From sequence record MN414250.1: a stretch of DNA of 39,508 nucleotides, one strand, 5' to 3'. A program made the translations under genes and the position numbers. Positions 1 through 39,508 of this stretch are shown piece by piece (position 1 is the stretch's first letter; every line of letters begins with the position of its first letter). This stretch comes from Escherichia phage RDN8.1. The notes beneath the pieces were generated by a model, which was given only the letters and a program-made list of their open reading frames with translations, was not told the DNA's origin and ran no database searches.

Positions 1-639
1 CTGTACCAACTCAACGGCTACATCTTCGCTATGGAAGTTGGCGGTATGCGTGGTGGTTATGAAGACTCTACGCTGGAAGCCTTGGCTAAGATTGGTCGTA
101 AGTGGAAGGTCAACGAGTACGTCATTGAGGGTAACTTCGGTGATGGTATGTACCTTGAGCTATTCAAGCCTGTAGCGGCCCGTATCCATCCTGCGGCTGT
201 AACTGAAGTGAAGAGTAAGGGTCAGAAAGAACTCCGCATCTGTGACGTTCTGGAGCCTATCATGGGGTCTCACAGACTTATCGTTAACGCTGCTGCCATA
301 GTACAAGACTACCAGTCGGCCTCTGATAAGGATGGTGTTCGTAACCCTATCTACTCTCTCTTCTACCAGATGACACGTATCTCTCGTGAACGTGGAGCCT
401 TGGCACACGATGACAGACTTGATGCGCTGGCTATCGGTGTACAGTTCTTCGTTGAGTCTATGGCTAAGGATGCCAACAAAGGCGAACGTGAAGTCACCGA
501 GGAGTGGCTGGAGGAACAGATGGAGAACCCACGGAAAGGCTTCGAGTCCATCCACACTGAGTTCTGGGACAATGGGGTCCGGGTGACTCACGATACGGAC
601 GACGAGCTTGGACTAGGGTCGTACGTTGCGTTCCACTAG
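1..639 (+). CDS. Large terminase subunit (T7 gp19-like), C-terminal part; 5' end lies at 38024..39508 because the window is circularly permuted
   Basis: Reading frame continuous from window start; translation ([15 protein letters not shown]...LFYQMTRISRERGALAHDDRLDALA) matches recalled T7 gp19 C-terminus; 1..357 identical to 39152..39508. Confidence 0.93.
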   Translation: MYQLNGYIFAMEVGGMRGGYEDSTLEALAKIGRKWKVNEYVIEGNFGDGMYLELFKPVAARIHPAAVTEVKSKGQKELRICDVLEPIMGSHRLIVNAAAIVQDYQSASDKDGVRNPIYSLFYQMTRISRERGALAHDDRLDALAIGVQFFVESMAKDANKGEREVTEEWLEEQMENPRKGFESIHTEFWDNGVRVTHDTDDELGLGSYVAFH

Positions 640-733
640 CTGAATGAATAACTATGGGTGAAAGCTGCATTAATACGCAGTTAGTAACCTATAGTTACTA
701 CCAGTATAACCTACTGTTTTACAAGGAGTTTGG

Positions 734-756
734 ACTTAACTATCACTATAGGGAAG
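734..756 (+). promoter_or_regulatory. Phage RNAP promoter (variant TTAACTATCACTATAGGGAAGA), predicted +1 at 751; phi-OR-like position after terminase
   Basis: Matches the 11-copy promoter motif; T7-type CACTATA-G core. Confidence 0.6.
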
Positions 757-936
757 ACCCCCGGTTACTTATAGTATTACTGTAGTGAATATACATATGC
801 AGACTTTATGCAAGACCTTAGGAGGCAGACTCCGAGTTCTTACCTAAGGCTTGCACCGATGGAAGGAGGGTGATATTAATCATAATCCCTCCAATACAGA
901 TAGTCACCGACCATAGATACAGGAGGTATGTAGCAT

Positions 937-1095
937 ATGGCAAAGACCAAAGCTGTACTTAAAGCTCTGGCGACCAATCGAGCTACATACAGGTTTCTTG
1001 CTGCTGTTCTACTTACTGCTGGCGTTACTGCTGGAAGTCAGTGGGTCGGGTGGGTCGAGACTCTCGTATGTACTCTGGTGTCTGAGTGTCATTAA
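937..1095 (+). CDS. Small hydrophobic protein, 52 aa (T7 gene 19.5 position)
   Basis: ATG 8 nt after AGGAGG; MAKTKAVLKALATNRATYRFLAAVLLTAGVTAGSQWVGWVETLVCTLVSECH; not in ORF track (<60 aa). Confidence 0.3.
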   Translation: MAKTKAVLKALATNRATYRFLAAVLLTAGVTAGSQWVGWVETLVCTLVSECH

Positions 1096-1332
1096 CGCTG
1101 TAATGGTAACAATCAACGAAAGACGGACCTAAGGTCAGTTCATAGCTGACGCTACTCTACTGACCTTAGCTACTGTAGTCAAGGACTTTAGGTAACACCT
1201 TAAGAGAAGCTCACTTAGGGTCATCCTACTTACTGGTCTATCCTAGTGTCGCCTGACCTACGGTCCTTGACCTACAGCAGCTTGGTCCTACAGTAGGGAC
1301 GATGAGTTTTGGACCAAAAGTTTGAGACCACA

Positions 1333-1523
1333 TCTCACAGTTCAAGAACCTCAAGTCTCCCCATAGGCCCTCTTTAAGTCCAGACCAAAGGCCCTACCCC
1401 TAGACCTTCGGTCTAAACTTCAAGTCATTGACCAAAGGTTGACCAGAAGTCTGGACCATCGGTGTCCTATATCTAGTGGTCATGACCCAAGGTTGGGACT
1501 ATATGTTGTGTCCTTGAGTCTCT
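1333..1523. repeat. Putative genome terminus / terminal-repeat region, collapsed to one copy in this assembly; boundaries approximate
   Basis: TCTCACAG at 1333 matches the first bases of the T7 left end; CCCCATAGG and GTGTCC..TCTCTATCTGT blocks resemble recalled T7 terminal-repeat sequence. Confidence 0.4.
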
Positions 1524-1547
1524 ATCTGTATCAGCCTCAAGTCATCA

Positions 1548-1642
1548 CCTACAGTCATCACCTACAGTCTGACAACCTACAGTCTCACAGCCTACAGTCA
1601 TCCACTGGTAATGGGACAACCTACAGTCATAGACCTACGGTC
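1548..1642. repeat. Array of short direct repeats (CCTACAGTC x5 plus GACCTACGGTC), analogous to T7 end-adjacent CCTAAAG repeats
   Basis: CCTACAGTC at 1548, 1561, 1576, 1591, 1620; related GACCTAAGGTC / CCTAAAGTC copies at about 1128, 1678, 1801. Confidence 0.7.
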
Positions 1643-1885
1643 TGGTAGACACTCAGTGGACCTTTAGTTTATCAGAGACCTAAGGTCTGGGTCTCAAGGG
1701 TTATCGTTATAGTCTCTATTTAGCAGTCAGGGAGACTATCAGTCTGACTAGGGTTATTGTTGGTGTCTGCCAACTGGACTCTTATTATCCATAGTCCTGA
1801 CCTAAAGTCAACCATCTGTAGTCGTTATCTGGTCATCCTTATATAGTCACTGGACTACTGTATAAATTACCATGATAAATAGTTG

Positions 1886-1914
1886 TTGACATAGGGTCTA
1901 ACTTTTGGTTTAAT
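1886..1914 (+). promoter_or_regulatory. Host sigma70-type early promoter (T7 A1-like): -35 TTGACA 1886..1891, 17-bp spacer, -10 TTTAAT 1909..1914
   Basis: Consensus -35, 17-bp spacer, near-consensus -10, AT-rich upstream; spacer GTCTAAC as in T7 A1. Confidence 0.6.
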
Positions 1915-3425: not shown

Positions 3426-3448
3426 ACTTAACTATCACTATAGGACTC
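3426..3448 (+). promoter_or_regulatory. Phage RNAP promoter-like sequence upstream of the RNAP gene, predicted +1 at 3443
   Basis: TTAACTATCACTATAGGACTCAAGG; same variant as at 734 and 26754. Confidence 0.5.
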
Positions 3449-3517: not shown

Positions 3518-6199
3518 ATGAGCGTCATCTCTATTAACAAACACGACTTCTCTGATGTGTCGAACGCCATTGAGCCGTTTAACCTGCTGGCCGACCACTA
3601 CGGGCAAGACCTTGCAGTCAAACAGCTTCAGCTTGAGCATGAGGCATACACTGAAGGCGAGCGACGTTTCATCAAGAACCTTGAGCGACAGACTGAGCGC
3701 GGGGAACTGGCAGACAATCAGGTAGCCAGGCCTCTTATGCAGACTCTGGTCCCTAAGATTGCGCAAGCCGTCAAGGAGTGGCACGAAGGTACAGACGGGA
3801 AGCTATCAACCTCTCGTCCGAGCGTAGCGTTCACCATGTTGAGCACTGAAGAGAAGGCCGTCAAGGACCGCTCTCTGCGCATCTCCTGTGAGTCTGCTGC
3901 GGTTATCATACTGAAGGTCGTCCTCTCCAAGCTGGTCAAGCCTGAAGGGATACCGATTACACCGATGGCCTCCGCGATAGGTCGCACACTTGAGGATGAA
4001 ATCCGCTTCGGTCGCATCCGTGACAAGGAGCAGGAGCACTTCAAGAAGGCGATAGCTGAGAACCTGAACAAGCGAGCCGGGGCATCCTACAAGAAAGCCT
4101 ACATGCAAGCGGTTGAGACCTCCATGCTGGAGCAAGGCCAACTGGAAGATGCGTGGGGAACTTGGAGTCCGACCGAGGCTGTCCACGTTGGAATCAAGAT
4201 GCTTGAGATTGTCATCCAGTCAACACAACTGGTAGAGCTTAAGCGTTATGGTGCTGGCAATGCTGCGGCTGACGTTGAGATGGTCCACCTGTCAGACTTC
4301 TGGGTCAAGAAGATGGCTCAGCGTGGCTTCTCTCTTGCGGGAATCGCTCCAGTCTACCAGCCATGCGTCGTTCCACCTAAGCCGTGGACTGGTGTCGTAG
4401 GCGGTGGGTATTGGGCCAAAGGTCGCAGACCATTGCCTCTGATTCGCTTGGGGTCTAAGTCTGCGGTAGCACGTTACGAAGACGTGTACATGCCTGAAGT
4501 CTATGACGCTGTGAACATCATCCAGAATACACCTTGGAAAGTTAACAAGAAGGTTCTGGACGTGGTGAACATGGTCGAGAAGCTGAACAACACGCCTATT
4601 GATGACATCCCTCAGATGGAACCGCTGAAGCCTGAGGACTATGCGGGTGAGACTGAAGAAGAACTCAAGGCATGGAAGAAAGCTGCTGCTGGTATCTATC
4701 GTCGCGAGAAGGCCCGACAGTCACGCAGATTGTCACTGAGCTTTATCGTTAACCAAGCGAACAAGTTTTCTCAGTTTAAGGCCATCTGGTTCCCGTATAA
4801 CATGGACTGGCGCGGGCGCGTCTACGCTGTACCGATGTTCAACCCTCAGGGTAACGACATGCAGAAGGGCCTCCTTACTCTGGCGGTAGGCAAGCCTATT
4901 GGTGCTGACGGTTTCAAATGGCTGAAGGTACACGGCGCAAACTGTGCCGGTGTCGATAAAGTCACCTTCGAGGAGCGCATCAAGTGGGTGGAAGACAACC
5001 ACGACAACATCATGGCTGCTGCTAAAGCACCGATGGACAGTATTGAGTGGTGGGGAAGGTTAGACTCTCCGTTCTGCTTCCTTGCGTTCTGCTTCGAGTA
5101 TGCTGGCGTAATGCACCACGGACTGTCCTACAACTGCTCGCTACCGATAGCGTTCGATGGGTCCTGCTCTGGTATTCAGCACTTCAGCGCGATGCTTCGT
5201 GACCACATCGGTGGACATGCAGTAAACCTGACGCCTTCCGGTAAGGTACAAGACATATACCGCATTGTATCTGACCGCATTGAGGAGGAGCTTAAAGTCC
5301 TGCTGGTTAACGGTACGGACAACGAGATGATAACCCACGAGGACAAGAAAACTGGCGAGATTACCGAGCGTCTCAAGCTGGGGACACGAGAGCTGTCCCG
5401 TCAGTGGCTGACCTACGGTATGTCACGCAAGGTCACTAAGCGTTCGGTCATGACTCTAGCCTACGGGTCGAAAGAGTACGGCTTCGCAGACCAAGTTTAC
5501 GAGGACATCGTGATGCCAGCGATTGACTCAGGGTCTGGAGCTATGTTCACTGAGCCAAGCCAAGCGTCTCGCTTCATGGCTAAGATGATTTGGGAAGCTG
5601 TGAGTGTGACCGTAGTTGCTGCGGTTGACGCGATGAAGTGGCTTCAAGGTGCTGCCAAGCTGCTGGCTGCTGAAGTGAAGGACAAGAAGACTGGCGAAAT
5701 CCTGAAGCCTTGCCTTCCGGTACACTGGGTCACACCTGATGGTTTCCCGGTCTGGCAGGAATATCGCAAGAAGGATACAACTCGTCTGAACCTGATGTTC
5801 TTAGGGTCATTCAACCTTCAGCCTACAGTCAACAAAGGCACGAAGAAAGAGCTGGACAAGCACAAGCAGGAGTCAGGCATTAGCCCGAACTTCGTCCACT
5901 CACAAGATGGTAGCCACCTACGCAAGACTGTAGTCCACACTCACCGCAAGTACGGCGTGATGTCGTTCGCAGTGATTCACGATAGTTTCGGGACCATACC
6001 TGCTGACGCTGAGTATCTGTTCCGTGGCGTCCGTGAGACGATGGTCGAGACCTACCGCGATAACGATGTGCTGCTTGACTTCTACGAGCAGTTCGAATAC
6101 CAGCTTCACGAGAGCCAGCGCGACAAGTTGCCTGAGCTTCCGAAGAAAGGTAAACTGAATATCGAAGACATCTTGTCTTCAGACTTTGCATTCGCTTAA
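3518..6199 (+). CDS. Single-subunit DNA-directed RNA polymerase (T7 gp1 homologue)
   Basis: 893 aa; long blocks match recalled T7 RNAP (NKFSQFKAIWFPYNMDWRGRVYAV, PFCFLAFCFEYAG, FAVIHDSFGT, C-terminal SDFAFA). Confidence 0.98.
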   Translation: MSVISINKHDFSDVSNAIEPFNLLADHYGQDLAVKQLQLEHEAYTEGERRFIKNLERQTERGELADNQVARPLMQTLVPKIAQAVKEWHEGTDGKLSTSRPSVAFTMLSTEEKAVKDRSLRISCESAAVIILKVVLSKLVKPEGIPITPMASAIGRTLEDEIRFGRIRDKEQEHFKKAIAENLNKRAGASYKKAYMQAVETSMLEQGQLEDAWGTWSPTEAVHVGIKMLEIVIQSTQLVELKRYGAGNAAADVEMVHLSDFWVKKMAQRGFSLAGIAPVYQPCVVPPKPWTGVVGGGYWAKGRRPLPLIRLGSKSAVARYEDVYMPEVYDAVNIIQNTPWKVNKKVLDVVNMVEKLNNTPIDDIPQMEPLKPEDYAGETEEELKAWKKAAAGIYRREKARQSRRLSLSFIVNQANKFSQFKAIWFPYNMDWRGRVYAVPMFNPQGNDMQKGLLTLAVGKPIGADGFKWLKVHGANCAGVDKVTFEERIKWVEDNHDNIMAAAKAPMDSIEWWGRLDSPFCFLAFCFEYAGVMHHGLSYNCSLPIAFDGSCSGIQHFSAMLRDHIGGHAVNLTPSGKVQDIYRIVSDRIEEELKVLLVNGTDNEMITHEDKKTGEITERLKLGTRELSRQWLTYGMSRKVTKRSVMTLAYGSKEYGFADQVYEDIVMPAIDSGSGAMFTEPSQASRFMAKMIWEAVSVTVVAAVDAMKWLQGAAKLLAAEVKDKKTGEILKPCLPVHWVTPDGFPVWQEYRKKDTTRLNLMFLGSFNLQPTVNKGTKKELDKHKQESGISPNFVHSQDGSHLRKTVVHTHRKYGVMSFAVIHDSFGTIPADAEYLFRGVRETMVETYRDNDVLLDFYEQFEYQLHESQRDKLPELPKKGKLNIEDILSSDFAFA

Positions 6200-37594: not shown

Positions 37595-38031
37595 TGCTCA
37601 GTGATTCGTATGTCTATGATGAGTCCAGTAAGTCTGGCCTGAAGTCCCTGCGTTCTGGTAAGGATGTGGGGTGTGTGGGAAACCACGGGTATTATCAGGT
37701 AGGAACTCGACGTCATGGACTCCTGCTGGCCCATAGAGTCGTCTGGGAGCTAACCAACGGTCCTATACCAGAAGGTATGGAGATTGACCATATTGACCGC
37801 TGCCGGACTAACAACAGGCTTGACAACCTCCGGCTAGTTACTTCAAGCGAGAACTCCTGCAACACCTCAGGACATTCTGACTCAAAGACTGGAGTTAAGA
37901 ACATATCGTTCCATCAGAATGGCTACGCTATCGAGGTCATGCGTAAGGGAGTCCGTATGCGAACAACACGTCCTACTTTAGAGGAGGCTATCTCTGTCCG
38001 GGACCTAATGCTGGAGGGACTATATGTCTAA
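37591..38031 (+). CDS. HNH endonuclease inserted between Rz and terminase
   Basis: AGGAG RBS; [41 protein letters not shown]; paralogue of 8043..8525. Confidence 0.8.
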
Positions 38032-39508
38032 GAAAACACCTGCTGAAAGACAGGCTGAAATGACCCAAAGGATGAGGGACGACTTCGTGTTCTTCATCTT
38101 TGTTCTCTGGAAAGCGCTGAGCCTTCCGGTTCCAACTAGATGTCAGATAGATATGTGTAAGAAGCTGGCTGCTGGCGATAACCGACGATTCATCCTTCAG
38201 GCGTTCCGAGGTATTGGCAAATCGTTTCTGACCTGTGGTTTCGTGGTCTGGAAATTATGGAACAACCCAGACTTAAAGTTCATGATTGTGTCGGCCTCAA
38301 AGGAGCGAGCCGATGCGAACTCCATCTTCATCAAGCGAATCATCGACCTAATGCCTCAGCTTCAGGAACTCAAACCTAAGCAGGGACAGCGAGATGCGGT
38401 TATCAGCTTCGACGTAGGGCCAGCCAAGCCAGACCACTCACCTTCGGTTAAGTCCGTTGGTATCACTGGTCAGTTGACTGGTAGTCGTGCTGACATCCTG
38501 ATTGCCGATGACGTGGAGGTTCCGAACAACTCAGCGACTCAGGCCGCACGAGACCGTCTGTCAGAGCTTGTGAAAGAGTTCGACGCTATTCTGAAGCCGG
38601 GAGGTACAATCATCTATCTGGGTACTCCTCAGAACGAGATGACTTTGTATCGTGAGCTGGAAGGCCGTGGGTACACCACTACTATCTGGCCTGCTCGTTA
38701 TCCACGCGACAGGAAGGACTGGCAGTCTTACGGCGACCGTCTGGCGCCGATGCTTCAGGCGGAGCTGGAAGAGGACCCTGAGTCCTTCTACTGGCGTCCG
38801 ACCGATGAAGTTCGATTCGACGATACTGACCTGAAGGAACGCGAGCTGTCCTACGGTAAAGCTGGCTTCGCTCTACAGTTCATGCTTAACCCGAACCTGA
38901 GTGATGCCGAGAAGTACCCTCTGAAGCTCCGTGACCTTATCGTAGCAGACTTGGACCCAGCGTCCAGCCCAATGGTCTACCAATGGTTGCCGAACCCTCA
39001 GAACAAGCGTGAGGACGTTCCTAACGTTGGACTCATGGGTGACTCATACCACACGTATCAGACTGTAGGTTCTGCCTTCAGTTCGTACACCCAGAAGATT
39101 CTGGTCATAGACCCTAGTGGTCGTGGCAAGGATGAAACTGGCTATGCGGTACTGTACCAACTCAACGGCTACATCTTCGCTATGGAAGTTGGCGGTATGC
39201 GTGGTGGTTATGAAGACTCTACGCTGGAAGCCTTGGCTAAGATTGGTCGTAAGTGGAAGGTCAACGAGTACGTCATTGAGGGTAACTTCGGTGATGGTAT
39301 GTACCTTGAGCTATTCAAGCCTGTAGCGGCCCGTATCCATCCTGCGGCTGTAACTGAAGTGAAGAGTAAGGGTCAGAAAGAACTCCGCATCTGTGACGTT
39401 CTGGAGCCTATCATGGGGTCTCACAGACTTATCGTTAACGCTGCTGCCATAGTACAAGACTACCAGTCGGCCTCTGATAAGGATGGTGTTCGTAACCCTA
39501 TCTACTCT
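38024..39508 (+). CDS. Large terminase subunit (T7 gp19 homologue), N-terminal part; runs off the window end and continues at 1..639
   Basis: ATG 38024 overlaps HNH stop; [13 protein letters not shown] (Walker A), [55 protein letters not shown] match recalled T7 gp19. Confidence 0.95.
39152..39508. repeat. Exact copy of window positions 1..357 (assembly / circular-permutation overlap inside the terminase gene)
   Basis: Direct comparison of both ends; reading frame preserved across the join. Confidence 0.95.

What the first reader, a model, noticed from the sequence alone, without database searches (positions are those of the whole stretch)
640..1860. Physical genome ends and end-adjacent repeat arrays inferred inside the window
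The region between terminase and the early promoters contains a phi-OR-like promoter, a small gp19.5-position ORF, TCTCACAG at 1333 (identical to the first bases of the T7 left end) followed by T7-like terminal-repeat sequence, and arrays of CCTACAGTC / GACCTAAGGTC short repeats. The mature linear genome probably begins near 1333, with a direct terminal repeat of roughly 160-190 bp collapsed to one copy here.
Basis: partly seen in the sequence, partly recalled or inferred. Interest (0 to 1): 0.45.

Follow-up and report, generated by a model that had tools for sequence, protein, structure and literature searches.

The report
T7-type genome ends in K1F-like phage
This stretch is the ordinary head-to-tail junction of a K1F-like (T7-family) phage genome: the packaged DNA should start at base 1333 and carry a 191-base repeat (1333-1523) at both ends, as already mapped in close relatives.

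Summary
The window is a circularly closed assembly: its first 357 nt equal its last 357 nt, inside gene 19. The phage is a Kayfunavirus (K1F-like, T7 group).

Features found, in order:
- T7-type terminase gene, ending at 639
- perfect phage promoter in the phiOR position (734-756)
- gp19.5 homologue (937-1095)
- 209-nt strongly conserved block with an 11-nt inverted repeat (1124-1332)
- predicted terminal repeat (1333-1523)
- ATCTGTA (1524-1530)
- short-repeat arrays (1535-1809)
- host-type early promoters (from 1886)

Base 1333 aligns with base 1 of K1F (68 nt identical), SH5 and T7. The repeat's right edge aligns with the mapped ends of T7, T3, K11 and SH5, all of the form ...CCCT|ATCTGT. 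The repeat is therefore 191 bp (±2), present once here. The predicted mature genome is 39,342 bp.

TCTCACAG alone is not diagnostic, because it occurs three times in the genome. The extended homology is what places the end.

The mechanism is inferred by homology to T7. Physical ends were not tested, because no reads were available.

Minor points: the junction motif is ATCTGTA, not T7's ATCTGTT, and an inverted repeat after gene 19.5 is structurally conserved across genera.

This is an already known kind of feature and of low interest.

The parts
1..639 (+). 3' part of gene 19 (large terminase, T7 type). The 5' part is at 38024-39151. Positions 1-357 are repeated at 39152-39508 as an assembly overlap.
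   Evidence: ORF. Reconstituted 588-aa protein, with ATG at 38024. Pfam PF22530 (Terminase-T7_RNaseH-like) at E = 6e-38. 357-nt terminal overlap.
734..756 (+). Phage-RNA-polymerase promoter in the phiOR position (-17 to +6; +1 = G751). It reads rightwards across gene 19.5 and the terminal repeat.
   Evidence: Perfect match to the window's own promoter consensus: 9 sites, all on the + strand, 0.02 expected. Same position as the annotated phiOR of T7, T3 and K11.
937..1095 (+). Gene 19.5 homologue (52 aa, function unknown).
   Evidence: Annotated as gp19.5 in PE3-1.
1124..1332 (.). Strongly conserved non-coding block immediately left of the terminal repeat. It is the counterpart of the T7 right-end repeat region and a candidate packaging-recognition region. 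It contains GACCTAAGGTC-type motifs in both orientations.
   Evidence: Nearly identical in K1F, SH5 and PE3-1. Identity is 0.76-1.00 in 20-nt bins among 13 relatives. The distance from the inverted repeat to TCTCACAG stays at 204-207 nt in most contigs (max 236), even where insertions follow gene 19.5.
1129..1169 (.). Inverted repeat CTAAGGTCAGT / ACTGACCTTAG with perfect 11-nt arms and a 19-nt spacer. Its centre is 184 nt left of the repeat.
   Evidence: As single-stranded DNA it folds at -11.2 kcal/mol, z = -3.5 to -4.8. The arms are invariant in 24 of 25 related contigs, with 3 spacer lengths of differing sequence (19, 21 and 23 nt). The divergent contig L059 has TTAAGGTCTGT...ACAGACCTTAA, which is two compensated pairs.
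1333..1523 (.). Predicted direct terminal repeat (191 bp, ±2 at the right edge), present once in this assembly. 1333 is the predicted left end of mature DNA and 1523 is the predicted right end.
   Evidence: Termini mapped in relatives: PMC4925675.
1524..1530 (+). ATCTGTA, the positional homologue of the T7 concatemer-junction class II pause/termination signal ATCTGTT. It differs at the 7th base.
   Evidence: The same site is annotated 'concatemeric junction' in PE3-1 (sequence) and in K11. The signal is defined in 10.1101/2021.01.11.426313.
1535..1642 (+). Array of short direct repeats just inside the left end: CCTCAAGTC, five CCTACAGTC, one CCTACGGTC. It is the counterpart of the T7 CCTAAAG repeats.
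   Evidence: T7 sequence. Copy number varies among relatives.
1677..1809 (+). Scattered further copies of the same motif: GACCTAAGGTC at 1677-1687 and GACCTAAAGTC at 1799-1809.
1886..1914 (+). First host-type early promoter, A1-like: TTGACA, 17 nt, TTTAAT. It marks the right limit of the end region.
   Evidence: Read. Aligns with the annotated T7 A1 region. The consensus scan did not flag it, because the -10 hexamer has T at position 2.

Best explanation
Region 640-1860 is the concatemer junction of a Kayfunavirus (K1F-like member of the T7 group). The assembler captured it because the two copies of a short exact direct terminal repeat collapsed into one, which closed the contig into a circle.

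Predicted mature DNA:
- It starts at 1333 (TCTCACAG...).
- It runs rightwards around the assembly.
- It ends at 1523 (...GAGTCTCT).
- So 1333-1523 (191 bp) is present at both ends, and the genome is 39,151 + 191 = 39,342 bp.

Inferred mechanism, by homology with T7 and T3:
1. Replication produces head-to-tail concatemers with one repeat copy per junction.
2. The phage RNA polymerase starts at the phiOR-type promoter (+1 at 751). It transcribes through gene 19.5 and the repeat, and reaches the ATCTGT motif exactly at the repeat's right edge.
3. The T7-type terminase (gp18/gp19) with a prohead recognises the strongly conserved DNA from about 1124 to 1392.
4. The terminase cuts at the two repeat boundaries.
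5. The repeat is copied during packaging, so both neighbouring genomes receive one.

The inverted repeat at 1129-1169 is a candidate for the hairpin intermediate reported for T7. The short-repeat arrays on both sides correspond to the T7 arrays, whose role I recall as unestablished.

Shown here: the sequence homology, the synteny, the boundary alignment to mapped ends, the single-copy state and the terminase type.

Inferred: the physical ends of this phage, polymerase pausing, the recognition site and hairpin use.
For: Identity of the phage:
- 404 phage records match 600-2300. Most are T7-group podoviruses of enterobacteria, including Kayfunavirus records.

Left end:
- 68/68 nt identical to K1F nt 1-68, with the same junction context ACCAAAAGTTTGAGACCACA|TCTCACAG as at the right ends of K1F and SH5.
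- 10 of 60 sampled related records begin at exactly this base. Some carry annotated terminal repeats: SH5 1-191, T7M, Kpn-11mx and AP5.

Right edge:
- T7 (160 bp), T3 (231), K11 (181) and SH5 (191) all end ...CCCT|ATCTGT.
- IMG/VR copies of related genomes end at ...GAGTCTCT or ...GAGTCCCT, 179-191 nt after the left-end motif.

Mapped termini in relatives:
- Run-off sequencing of virion DNA mapped the SH3, SH4 and SH5 termini. The same paper cites 179 bp for K1F (PMC4925675).

Synteny with T7, T3 and K11: gene 19, then phiOR, then gene 19.5, then about 237 nt, then the repeat, then the early promoters.

Terminase: T7 type.

Assembly state: the repeat is single copy and the contig is circularly overlapped.

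Conservation profile: 733-1392 and 1493-1532 are highly conserved. The middle of the repeat and the arrays are not.

Literature support:
- Concatemers carry one repeat copy per junction, and the repeat is duplicated during packaging (PMC5000459).
- A hairpin containing the repeat is seen in T7 infection (PMC4281155).
- Packaging initiation depends on transcription. Packaging termination includes selective replication of the repeat (PMC1828717).
Against: - No read data or virion DNA exist for this phage, so the ends are placed by homology only. The right edge is uncertain by 1-2 nt. The K1F record repeats 178 nt while the paper states 179. The SH5 record gives 191 while its paper gives 190.
- The junction motif is ATCTGTA, not ATCTGTT. 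For T7 RNA polymerase any base change is reported to abolish class II termination.
- ATCTGT is not depleted on the transcribed strand (9 on + versus 9 on -). ATCTGTT itself occurs three times within the coding part of the genome (6015, 12282, 25921). A pause function here is therefore unproven.
- The conservation profile is partly biased. 10 of the 12 comparison sequences were picked by an exact 27-mer at 1331-1357.
- The inverted repeat could act in RNA rather than DNA.
Confidence: 0.9

Rival explanations
1. The genome is circularly permuted and packaged by the headful mechanism. There are then no fixed ends, and the circular assembly reflects that permutation rather than a collapsed exact repeat.
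For: The contig closes on itself with a 357-nt overlap. Headful phages also assemble this way.
Against: - The terminase is T7 type (PF22530).
- The region is collinear with, and in key parts identical to, phages whose fixed ends were mapped.
- The 357-nt overlap lies inside the terminase coding sequence. It looks like an assembler artefact.
Confidence: 0.03
2. The ends are fixed but lie elsewhere. Candidates are the other TCTCACAG copies (268 or 1583), or a repeat that is appreciably shorter or longer than 191 bp.
For: The octamer occurs at 268, 1333 and 1583. Inferred repeat lengths in the genus range from 166 to 231 bp.
Against: - 268 is inside gene 19.
- 1583 lies inside the CCTACAGTCTCACAGCCTACAGTC array. 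Its K1F counterpart, near nt 249-274, is in unique DNA to the right of the repeat.
- Only 1333 has the conserved flank ...TTTGAGACCACA|TCTCACAGTTCAAGAACC.
- The right boundary motif GAGTCTCT|ATCTGTAT occurs once. CTATCTGT is unique on the + strand.
Confidence: 0.05
3. The conserved inverted repeat and the conserved DNA from 755 to 1332 serve RNA functions of the phiOR transcript, such as stability, processing, or translation of gene 19.5. On this view they are not packaging signals.
For: - The repeat lies about 35 nt after the gene 19.5 stop, on the transcribed strand.
- Hairpins of the same topology follow gene 19.5 in T7, T3 and K11.
- A second hairpin precedes gene 19.5 (865-892, read).
Against: - The distance from the repeat to the terminal repeat is held at 204-207 nt in most contigs (max 236), even though insertions occur between gene 19.5 and the repeat.
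- A hairpin intermediate containing the terminal repeat is reported for T7 (PMC4281155).
- Rfam has no match.
- The two roles do not exclude each other.
Confidence: 0.3

Closest known systems
Direct terminal repeats of Kayfunavirus phages: K1F (NC_007456, 178-179 bp) and Citrobacter phages SH3, SH4 and SH5 (183-191 bp, mapped by run-off sequencing)
   Same: - Identical left-end sequence: 68 nt with K1F.
- Identical 20-nt flank before the right-hand repeat copy.
- The same right-boundary motif, GAGTC(T/C)CT|ATCTGTAT.
- The same length as SH5 (191 bp), with 84% identity.
- The same inverted repeat and the same gene order.
   Different: - The middle of the repeat (about 1393-1492) diverges. It resembles SH5 and PE3-1 rather than K1F.
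- The window lacks the small insertions that K1F and SH5 carry between gene 19.5 and the inverted repeat.
- The copy number of the post-repeat arrays differs.
Bacteriophage T7 concatemer junction: phiOR, gene 19.5, right-end short repeats, 160-bp terminal repeat, class II pause site ATCTGTT, left-end CCTAAAG repeats, and early promoters A1-A3
   Same: - Same order and similar spacing. The gene 19.5 stop to the repeat is 237 nt here and 239 nt in T7.
- Same first 9 bases, TCTCACAGT.
- The repeat ends immediately before ATCTGT.
- Arrays of 9-nt motifs that differ by one base: CCTACAGTC here, CCTAAAGTC in T7.
- An inverted repeat centred 184 nt (here) and 190 nt (T7) left of the repeat.
   Different: - The repeat is 191 bp against 160 bp, with only 59% aligned identity.
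- The 7th base of the pause motif is A, not T.
- No phiOL-type phage promoter lies between the repeat and A1.
- The inverted repeat has a different sequence.
Annotated 'concatemeric junction' features in Klebsiella phage K11 (NC_011043, 180-188) and Escherichia phage PE3-1 (KJ748011, 728-735)
   Same: These features mark the same (C)TATCTGT motif at the right edge of the repeat.
   Different: K11 has ATCTGTT and a 181-bp repeat. PE3-1 is a permuted record like this window and has ATCTGTAA.

Membership tests
T7-group (Studiervirinae) short exact direct terminal repeat / concatemer junction | T7-type large terminase (gp19) encoded immediately upstream | tested here: met
   PF22530 Terminase-T7_RNaseH-like, E = 6e-38, on the 588-aa protein rebuilt across the assembly overlap.
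T7-group (Studiervirinae) short exact direct terminal repeat / concatemer junction | Gene order: gene 19, phiOR promoter, gene 19.5, repeat, host early promoters, gene 0.3 | tested here: met
   Compared with the annotated T7, T3 and K11 records.
T7-group (Studiervirinae) short exact direct terminal repeat / concatemer junction | Left end homologous to experimentally mapped left ends (TCTCAYAG...) | tested here: met
   1333-1400 equals K1F nt 1-68. SH5, IMM-002 and T7 start at the same base. 10 of 60 sampled records start there.
T7-group (Studiervirinae) short exact direct terminal repeat / concatemer junction | Right edge of the repeat homologous to mapped right ends (...C(T/C)CT just before ATCTGT) | tested here: met
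   T7, T3, K11 and SH5 boundaries. Contig ends of relatives. In the window, GAGTCTCT|ATCTGTAT at 1523|1524.
T7-group (Studiervirinae) short exact direct terminal repeat / concatemer junction | The repeat is physically present at both ends of virion DNA (two-fold coverage, read-start pile-ups, run-off stops) | not testable with these tools
   No reads or DNA were available. Indirect evidence only: a single copy in a contig that closes on itself.
T7-group (Studiervirinae) short exact direct terminal repeat / concatemer junction | Arrays of short repeats on both sides of the repeat | tested here: met
   T7 arrays are visible.
T7 RNA polymerase class II pause/termination signal (concatemer-junction site) | Exact heptamer ATCTGTT on the non-template strand, preceded by A, C or T | tested here: not met
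   The window has T-ATCTGTA, with A at the 7th base. All 11 distinct Kayfunavirus junctions examined have ATCTGTA. T7, T3 and K11 have ATCTGTT. I therefore file it only as the positional homologue.
T7 RNA polymerase class II pause/termination signal (concatemer-junction site) | The cognate polymerase pauses or terminates 6-8 nt downstream | not testable with these tools
   This needs in vitro transcription with this phage's own polymerase.
Genus Kayfunavirus (K1F-like) | High nucleotide similarity and collinearity with K1F, SH4/SH5 and PE3-1 | tested here: met
   Best hits are 85-93% identical across 600-2300 and 1300-1560. Several are classified in or named Kayfunavirus. Only this end region was compared, not the whole genome.

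The most novel reading that the evidence does not exclude
Kayfunaviruses may process concatemers with a variant of the T7 scheme. Two observations point that way.

First, the junction motif is invariably ATCTGTA, which T7 polymerase reportedly would not recognise. Either K1F-type polymerases pause at an altered signal, or the motif is really a terminase cleavage or recognition determinant and not a polymerase signal.

Second, the inverted repeat after gene 19.5 is kept by compensatory changes and held at a nearly fixed distance from the repeat. It may be the site where a hairpin primes duplication of the terminal repeat.
Probability: 0.25. Interest if true: 0.35.

Novelty: already known. Interest (0 to 1): 0.12.

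Why it matters
Mostly for bookkeeping. The result lets the genome be re-oriented to its true start at 1333 and given its correct mature length of 39,342 bp with a 191-bp repeat at each end. It also flags the 357-nt assembly overlap for removal.

Correct ends matter for annotation, for comparative genomics, for engineering or rebooting the phage, and for building packageable phagemids. Biologically it is a standard T7-type junction.

The only mildly interesting points are the genus-wide ATCTGTA variant and the structurally conserved inverted repeat left of the repeat. Both could help test long-standing models of how T7-like phages duplicate their terminal repeat.

Tried and rejected
- **Octamer as evidence.** Rejected. 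TCTCACAG occurs three times in the genome.
- **Depletion of ATCTGT on the transcribed strand.** It would have supported a pause function. It is not depleted (9 on + versus 9 on -), it ranks mid-range among 6-mers of the same composition, and ATCTGTT occurs three times elsewhere on the + strand.
- **Other ORFs in the region.** The 43-aa ORF at 654-785 and the 69-aa ORF at 1439-1648 have no PHROGs match. The second lies across the repeat and the arrays, so I treat both as non-genes.
- **Rfam scan of 600-2400.** Only a chance microRNA match at E = 0.34.
- **The intrinsic-terminator-like site at 1285-1300.** No more such sites than in shuffles.
- **Perfect-arm inverted repeats at the same place in T7, T3 and K11.** None of 7 nt or longer at the right position. 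Imperfect 15-19-nt arms of the AGGGAT...ATCCCT type were then found with a tolerant search.
- **Degenerate palindrome scan of IMG/VR.** Intended to test covariation at one pair. Only one compensated variant turned up among T7-like contigs. The other hits were unrelated contigs.
- **Literature.** The K1F and phiYeO3-12 genome papers are not held. A search for 'pacB' returned PacBio papers. Details of the Chung and Hinkle pac-site mapping, and the exact T7 hairpin position (about 190 nt left of the repeat), therefore rest on my recollection.
- **The 357-nt window overlap as the terminal repeat.** Rejected, because it lies inside gene 19.

Full report
**What the window is.** The first 357 nt of the window are identical to its last 357 nt, and the overlap lies inside the large-terminase gene. 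That gene runs 38024-39151 and continues at 1-639. The rebuilt 588-aa protein carries the T7-type terminase domain PF22530 at E = 6e-38. The window is therefore a circularly closed assembly with 39,151 unique bases. A search with 600-2300 finds 404 phage records. Most are T7-group podoviruses of enterobacteria, including Kayfunavirus records, and the best matches are 85-89% identical. With 1300-1560 the best matches reach up to 93%. The phage is a K1F-like member of the T7 group.

**Checking the observation.**
- A perfect copy of the phage's own promoter consensus (TAACTATCACTATAGGGA) lies at 737-754. It is one of nine matches, all on the + strand, against 0.02 expected. It sits 98 nt after the terminase stop, as phiOR does in T7, T3 and K11.
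- The 52-aa ORF at 937-1095 belongs to phrog_2193 at E = 3e-23. It is weakly but recognisably similar to T7 gp19.5. Its homologue in PE3-1 is annotated gp19.5.
- TCTCACAG is at 1333. It also occurs at 268 and 1583, so the octamer alone proves nothing.
- CCTACAGTC occurs five times within 1548-1628, against 0.55 copies expected in the whole window.
- GACCTAAGGTC-like motifs cluster in 1126-1809.
- Tandem Repeats Finder reports a 13-15-nt period array at 1540-1602.

**Placing the left end.**
- Bases 1333-1400 are identical to bases 1-68 of the deposited K1F genome.
- The 20 nt before 1333 (ACCAAAAGTTTGAGACCACA) are identical to the sequence that precedes the right-hand repeat copy in K1F and SH5.
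- SH5, IMM-002 and T7 also begin at this base. Among 60 related records sampled evenly down the hit list, 10 begin exactly here. Several of those carry annotated terminal repeats.
- The SH3, SH4 and SH5 termini were determined by sequencing off the ends of virion DNA. The same paper quotes 179 bp for K1F (PMC4925675).

**Placing the right edge of the repeat.**
- Exact comparison of left and right ends gives repeats of 160 bp (T7), 231 bp (T3), 181 bp (K11), 178 bp (K1F record) and 191 bp (SH5).
- In T7, T3, K11 and SH5 the repeat ends ...CCCT and the next bases are ATCTGT.
- IMG/VR copies of related genomes stop at ...GAGTCTCT or ...GAGTCCCT, 179-191 nt after the left-end motif.
- In the window, GAGTCTCT ends at 1523 and ATCTGTAT starts at 1524.
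- The repeat is therefore 1333-1523, which is 191 bp with an uncertainty of one or two bases. It occurs only once in the assembly.
- The predicted mature genome is 39,342 bp.

**Anatomy and conservation.** I aligned the window with 12 relatives. Ten of them were picked by an exact 27-mer at 1331-1357, so that stretch is conserved by construction. The alignment shows:
- a long conserved non-coding-plus-19.5 stretch from about 733 to 1392 (identity 0.75-1.0 in 20-nt bins);
- a variable middle of the repeat (0.50-0.74);
- a conserved repeat end at 1493-1532 (0.85-0.88);
- poorly conserved post-repeat arrays (0.28-0.78).

The block 1124-1332 is nearly identical in K1F, SH5 and PE3-1. The arrays change copy number between relatives. 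PE3-1, for example, has five tandem CAACAACCATAGGTCT units.

**The inverted repeat.**
- Positions 1129-1139 and 1159-1169 form a perfect 11-nt inverted repeat. Its centre is 184 nt left of the repeat.
- As single-stranded DNA it folds better than all 200 shuffles.
- Its arms are unchanged in 24 of 25 related contigs, while the spacer occurs in 3 lengths of differing sequence.
- Its distance to TCTCACAG stays at 204-207 nt in most contigs (max 236), even where insertions follow gene 19.5.
- The most divergent contig has TTAAGGTCTGT...ACAGACCTTAA, which amounts to two compensated pairs.
- T7, T3 and K11 carry a different inverted repeat (AGGGAT...ATCCCT) at the equivalent place. It is centred 190, 184 and 145 nt left of their repeats. 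T7 and T3 share the same fold topology and have compensated inner pairs.

**Mechanism.** Established work on T7 and T3, as summarised in papers I could read, says the following.
- Concatemers carry one repeat copy per junction, and the repeat is duplicated during packaging (PMC5000459).
- A hairpin containing the repeat is seen during infection (PMC4281155).
- Packaging initiation in vivo depends on the phage RNA polymerase. Termination includes selective replication of the repeat (PMC1828717).
- The pause signal is the class II heptamer ATCTGTT.
- Plasmids carrying a T7 origin, a pac site and the repeat are packaged (PMC13236587).

The window has every corresponding part in the same order and at similar spacing, so the same mechanism is the best explanation. 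That is inference by homology. Nothing about pausing, recognition or hairpin use was tested here. My recollection that the T7 hairpin maps about 190 nt left of the repeat could not be checked in the library.

**Departures from T7.**
- The junction heptamer is ATCTGTA here and in all 11 distinct Kayfunavirus junctions examined. T7, T3 and K11 have ATCTGTT.
- For T7 polymerase, any base change is said to abolish class II termination.
- ATCTGT is not avoided on the transcribed strand, and ATCTGTT itself occurs three times elsewhere on the transcribed strand, at 6015, 12282 and 25921.
- I therefore call 1524-1530 the positional homologue of the junction signal and not a proven pause site.
- No phiOL-type phage promoter lies between the repeat and the first host-type promoter.

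**Rivals.**
- Headful packaging is unlikely, given the terminase type and the mapped fixed ends of near relatives.
- Ends at the other TCTCACAG copies are excluded by context. One copy is in gene 19. The other is in the repeat array, whose K1F counterpart lies in unique DNA.
- An RNA-level role for the inverted repeat remains open and is compatible with a DNA role.

**Verdict.** This is a standard, already described feature of T7-like phages, in a genome whose close relatives have had their ends mapped. Its practical value is correct genome orientation and length. Scientific interest is low.

Noticed in passing
window 1-357 and 39152-39508: The two ends of the window are identical over 357 nt, inside the terminase gene (gene 19 = 38024-39151 plus 1-639). 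This is an assembly overlap from circular closure, not a biological repeat. The unique length is 39,151 bp.
   Followed up: yes
window 1129-1169; L006 669-709 (T7 39568-39608); L033 575-615 (T3); L034 735-779 (K11); L059 2175-2219: An inverted repeat just after gene 19.5 is present in four genera, with different sequences but a similar position (centre 145-190 nt left of the terminal repeat). Compensated pair changes occur within each sequence type. It could be the DNA hairpin proposed for duplicating the repeat, or an RNA stem at the end of the gene 19.5 message.
   Followed up: partly
window 1524-1530 and the homologous sites in L001, L003, L007 and IMG/VR loci: All 11 distinct Kayfunavirus junctions have ATCTGTA at the right edge of the repeat. 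T7, T3 and K11 have the canonical class II signal ATCTGTT.
   Followed up: partly
window 3429-3446: A phage-type promoter (TAACTATCACTATAGGAC) lies 72 nt upstream of the RNA polymerase gene, which starts at 3518. It is conserved in all 4 related contigs that cover the region. It would allow the polymerase to transcribe its own gene. T7, as I recall, has no phage promoter there.
   Followed up: partly
window 1524-1885: No phiOL-type phage promoter lies between the terminal repeat and the first host-type promoter, unlike T7, T3 and K11, whose records annotate phiOL. A leftward sigma-70-like match (TTGACT, 16 nt, GATAAT) at 1811-1784 might correspond to the T7/T3 leftward promoter A0, but it is only a consensus match in poorly conserved DNA.
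   Followed up: no
window 865-892: A hairpin-forming sequence, GGAGGGTGATATTAATCATAATCCCTCC, lies upstream of gene 19.5 in a highly conserved stretch. T7 has GGTGAT...ATCACC at the equivalent place. Its function is unknown.
   Followed up: no
L001 (PE3-1) 740-830 compared with window 1535-1642: The post-repeat arrays expand and contract between relatives. PE3-1 has five tandem CAACAACCATAGGTCT units, and K1F mixes CCATAAGTC with CCTACAGTC. This suggests replication slippage with little sequence constraint.
   Followed up: partly
window 1096-1123 compared with L004 (K1F) 930-1020 and L008 (SH5): K1F and SH5 carry small insertions, possibly mini-ORFs, between gene 19.5 and the inverted repeat. 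The window lacks them. In the contigs with extra DNA in this interval, it lies upstream of the inverted repeat.
   Followed up: partly
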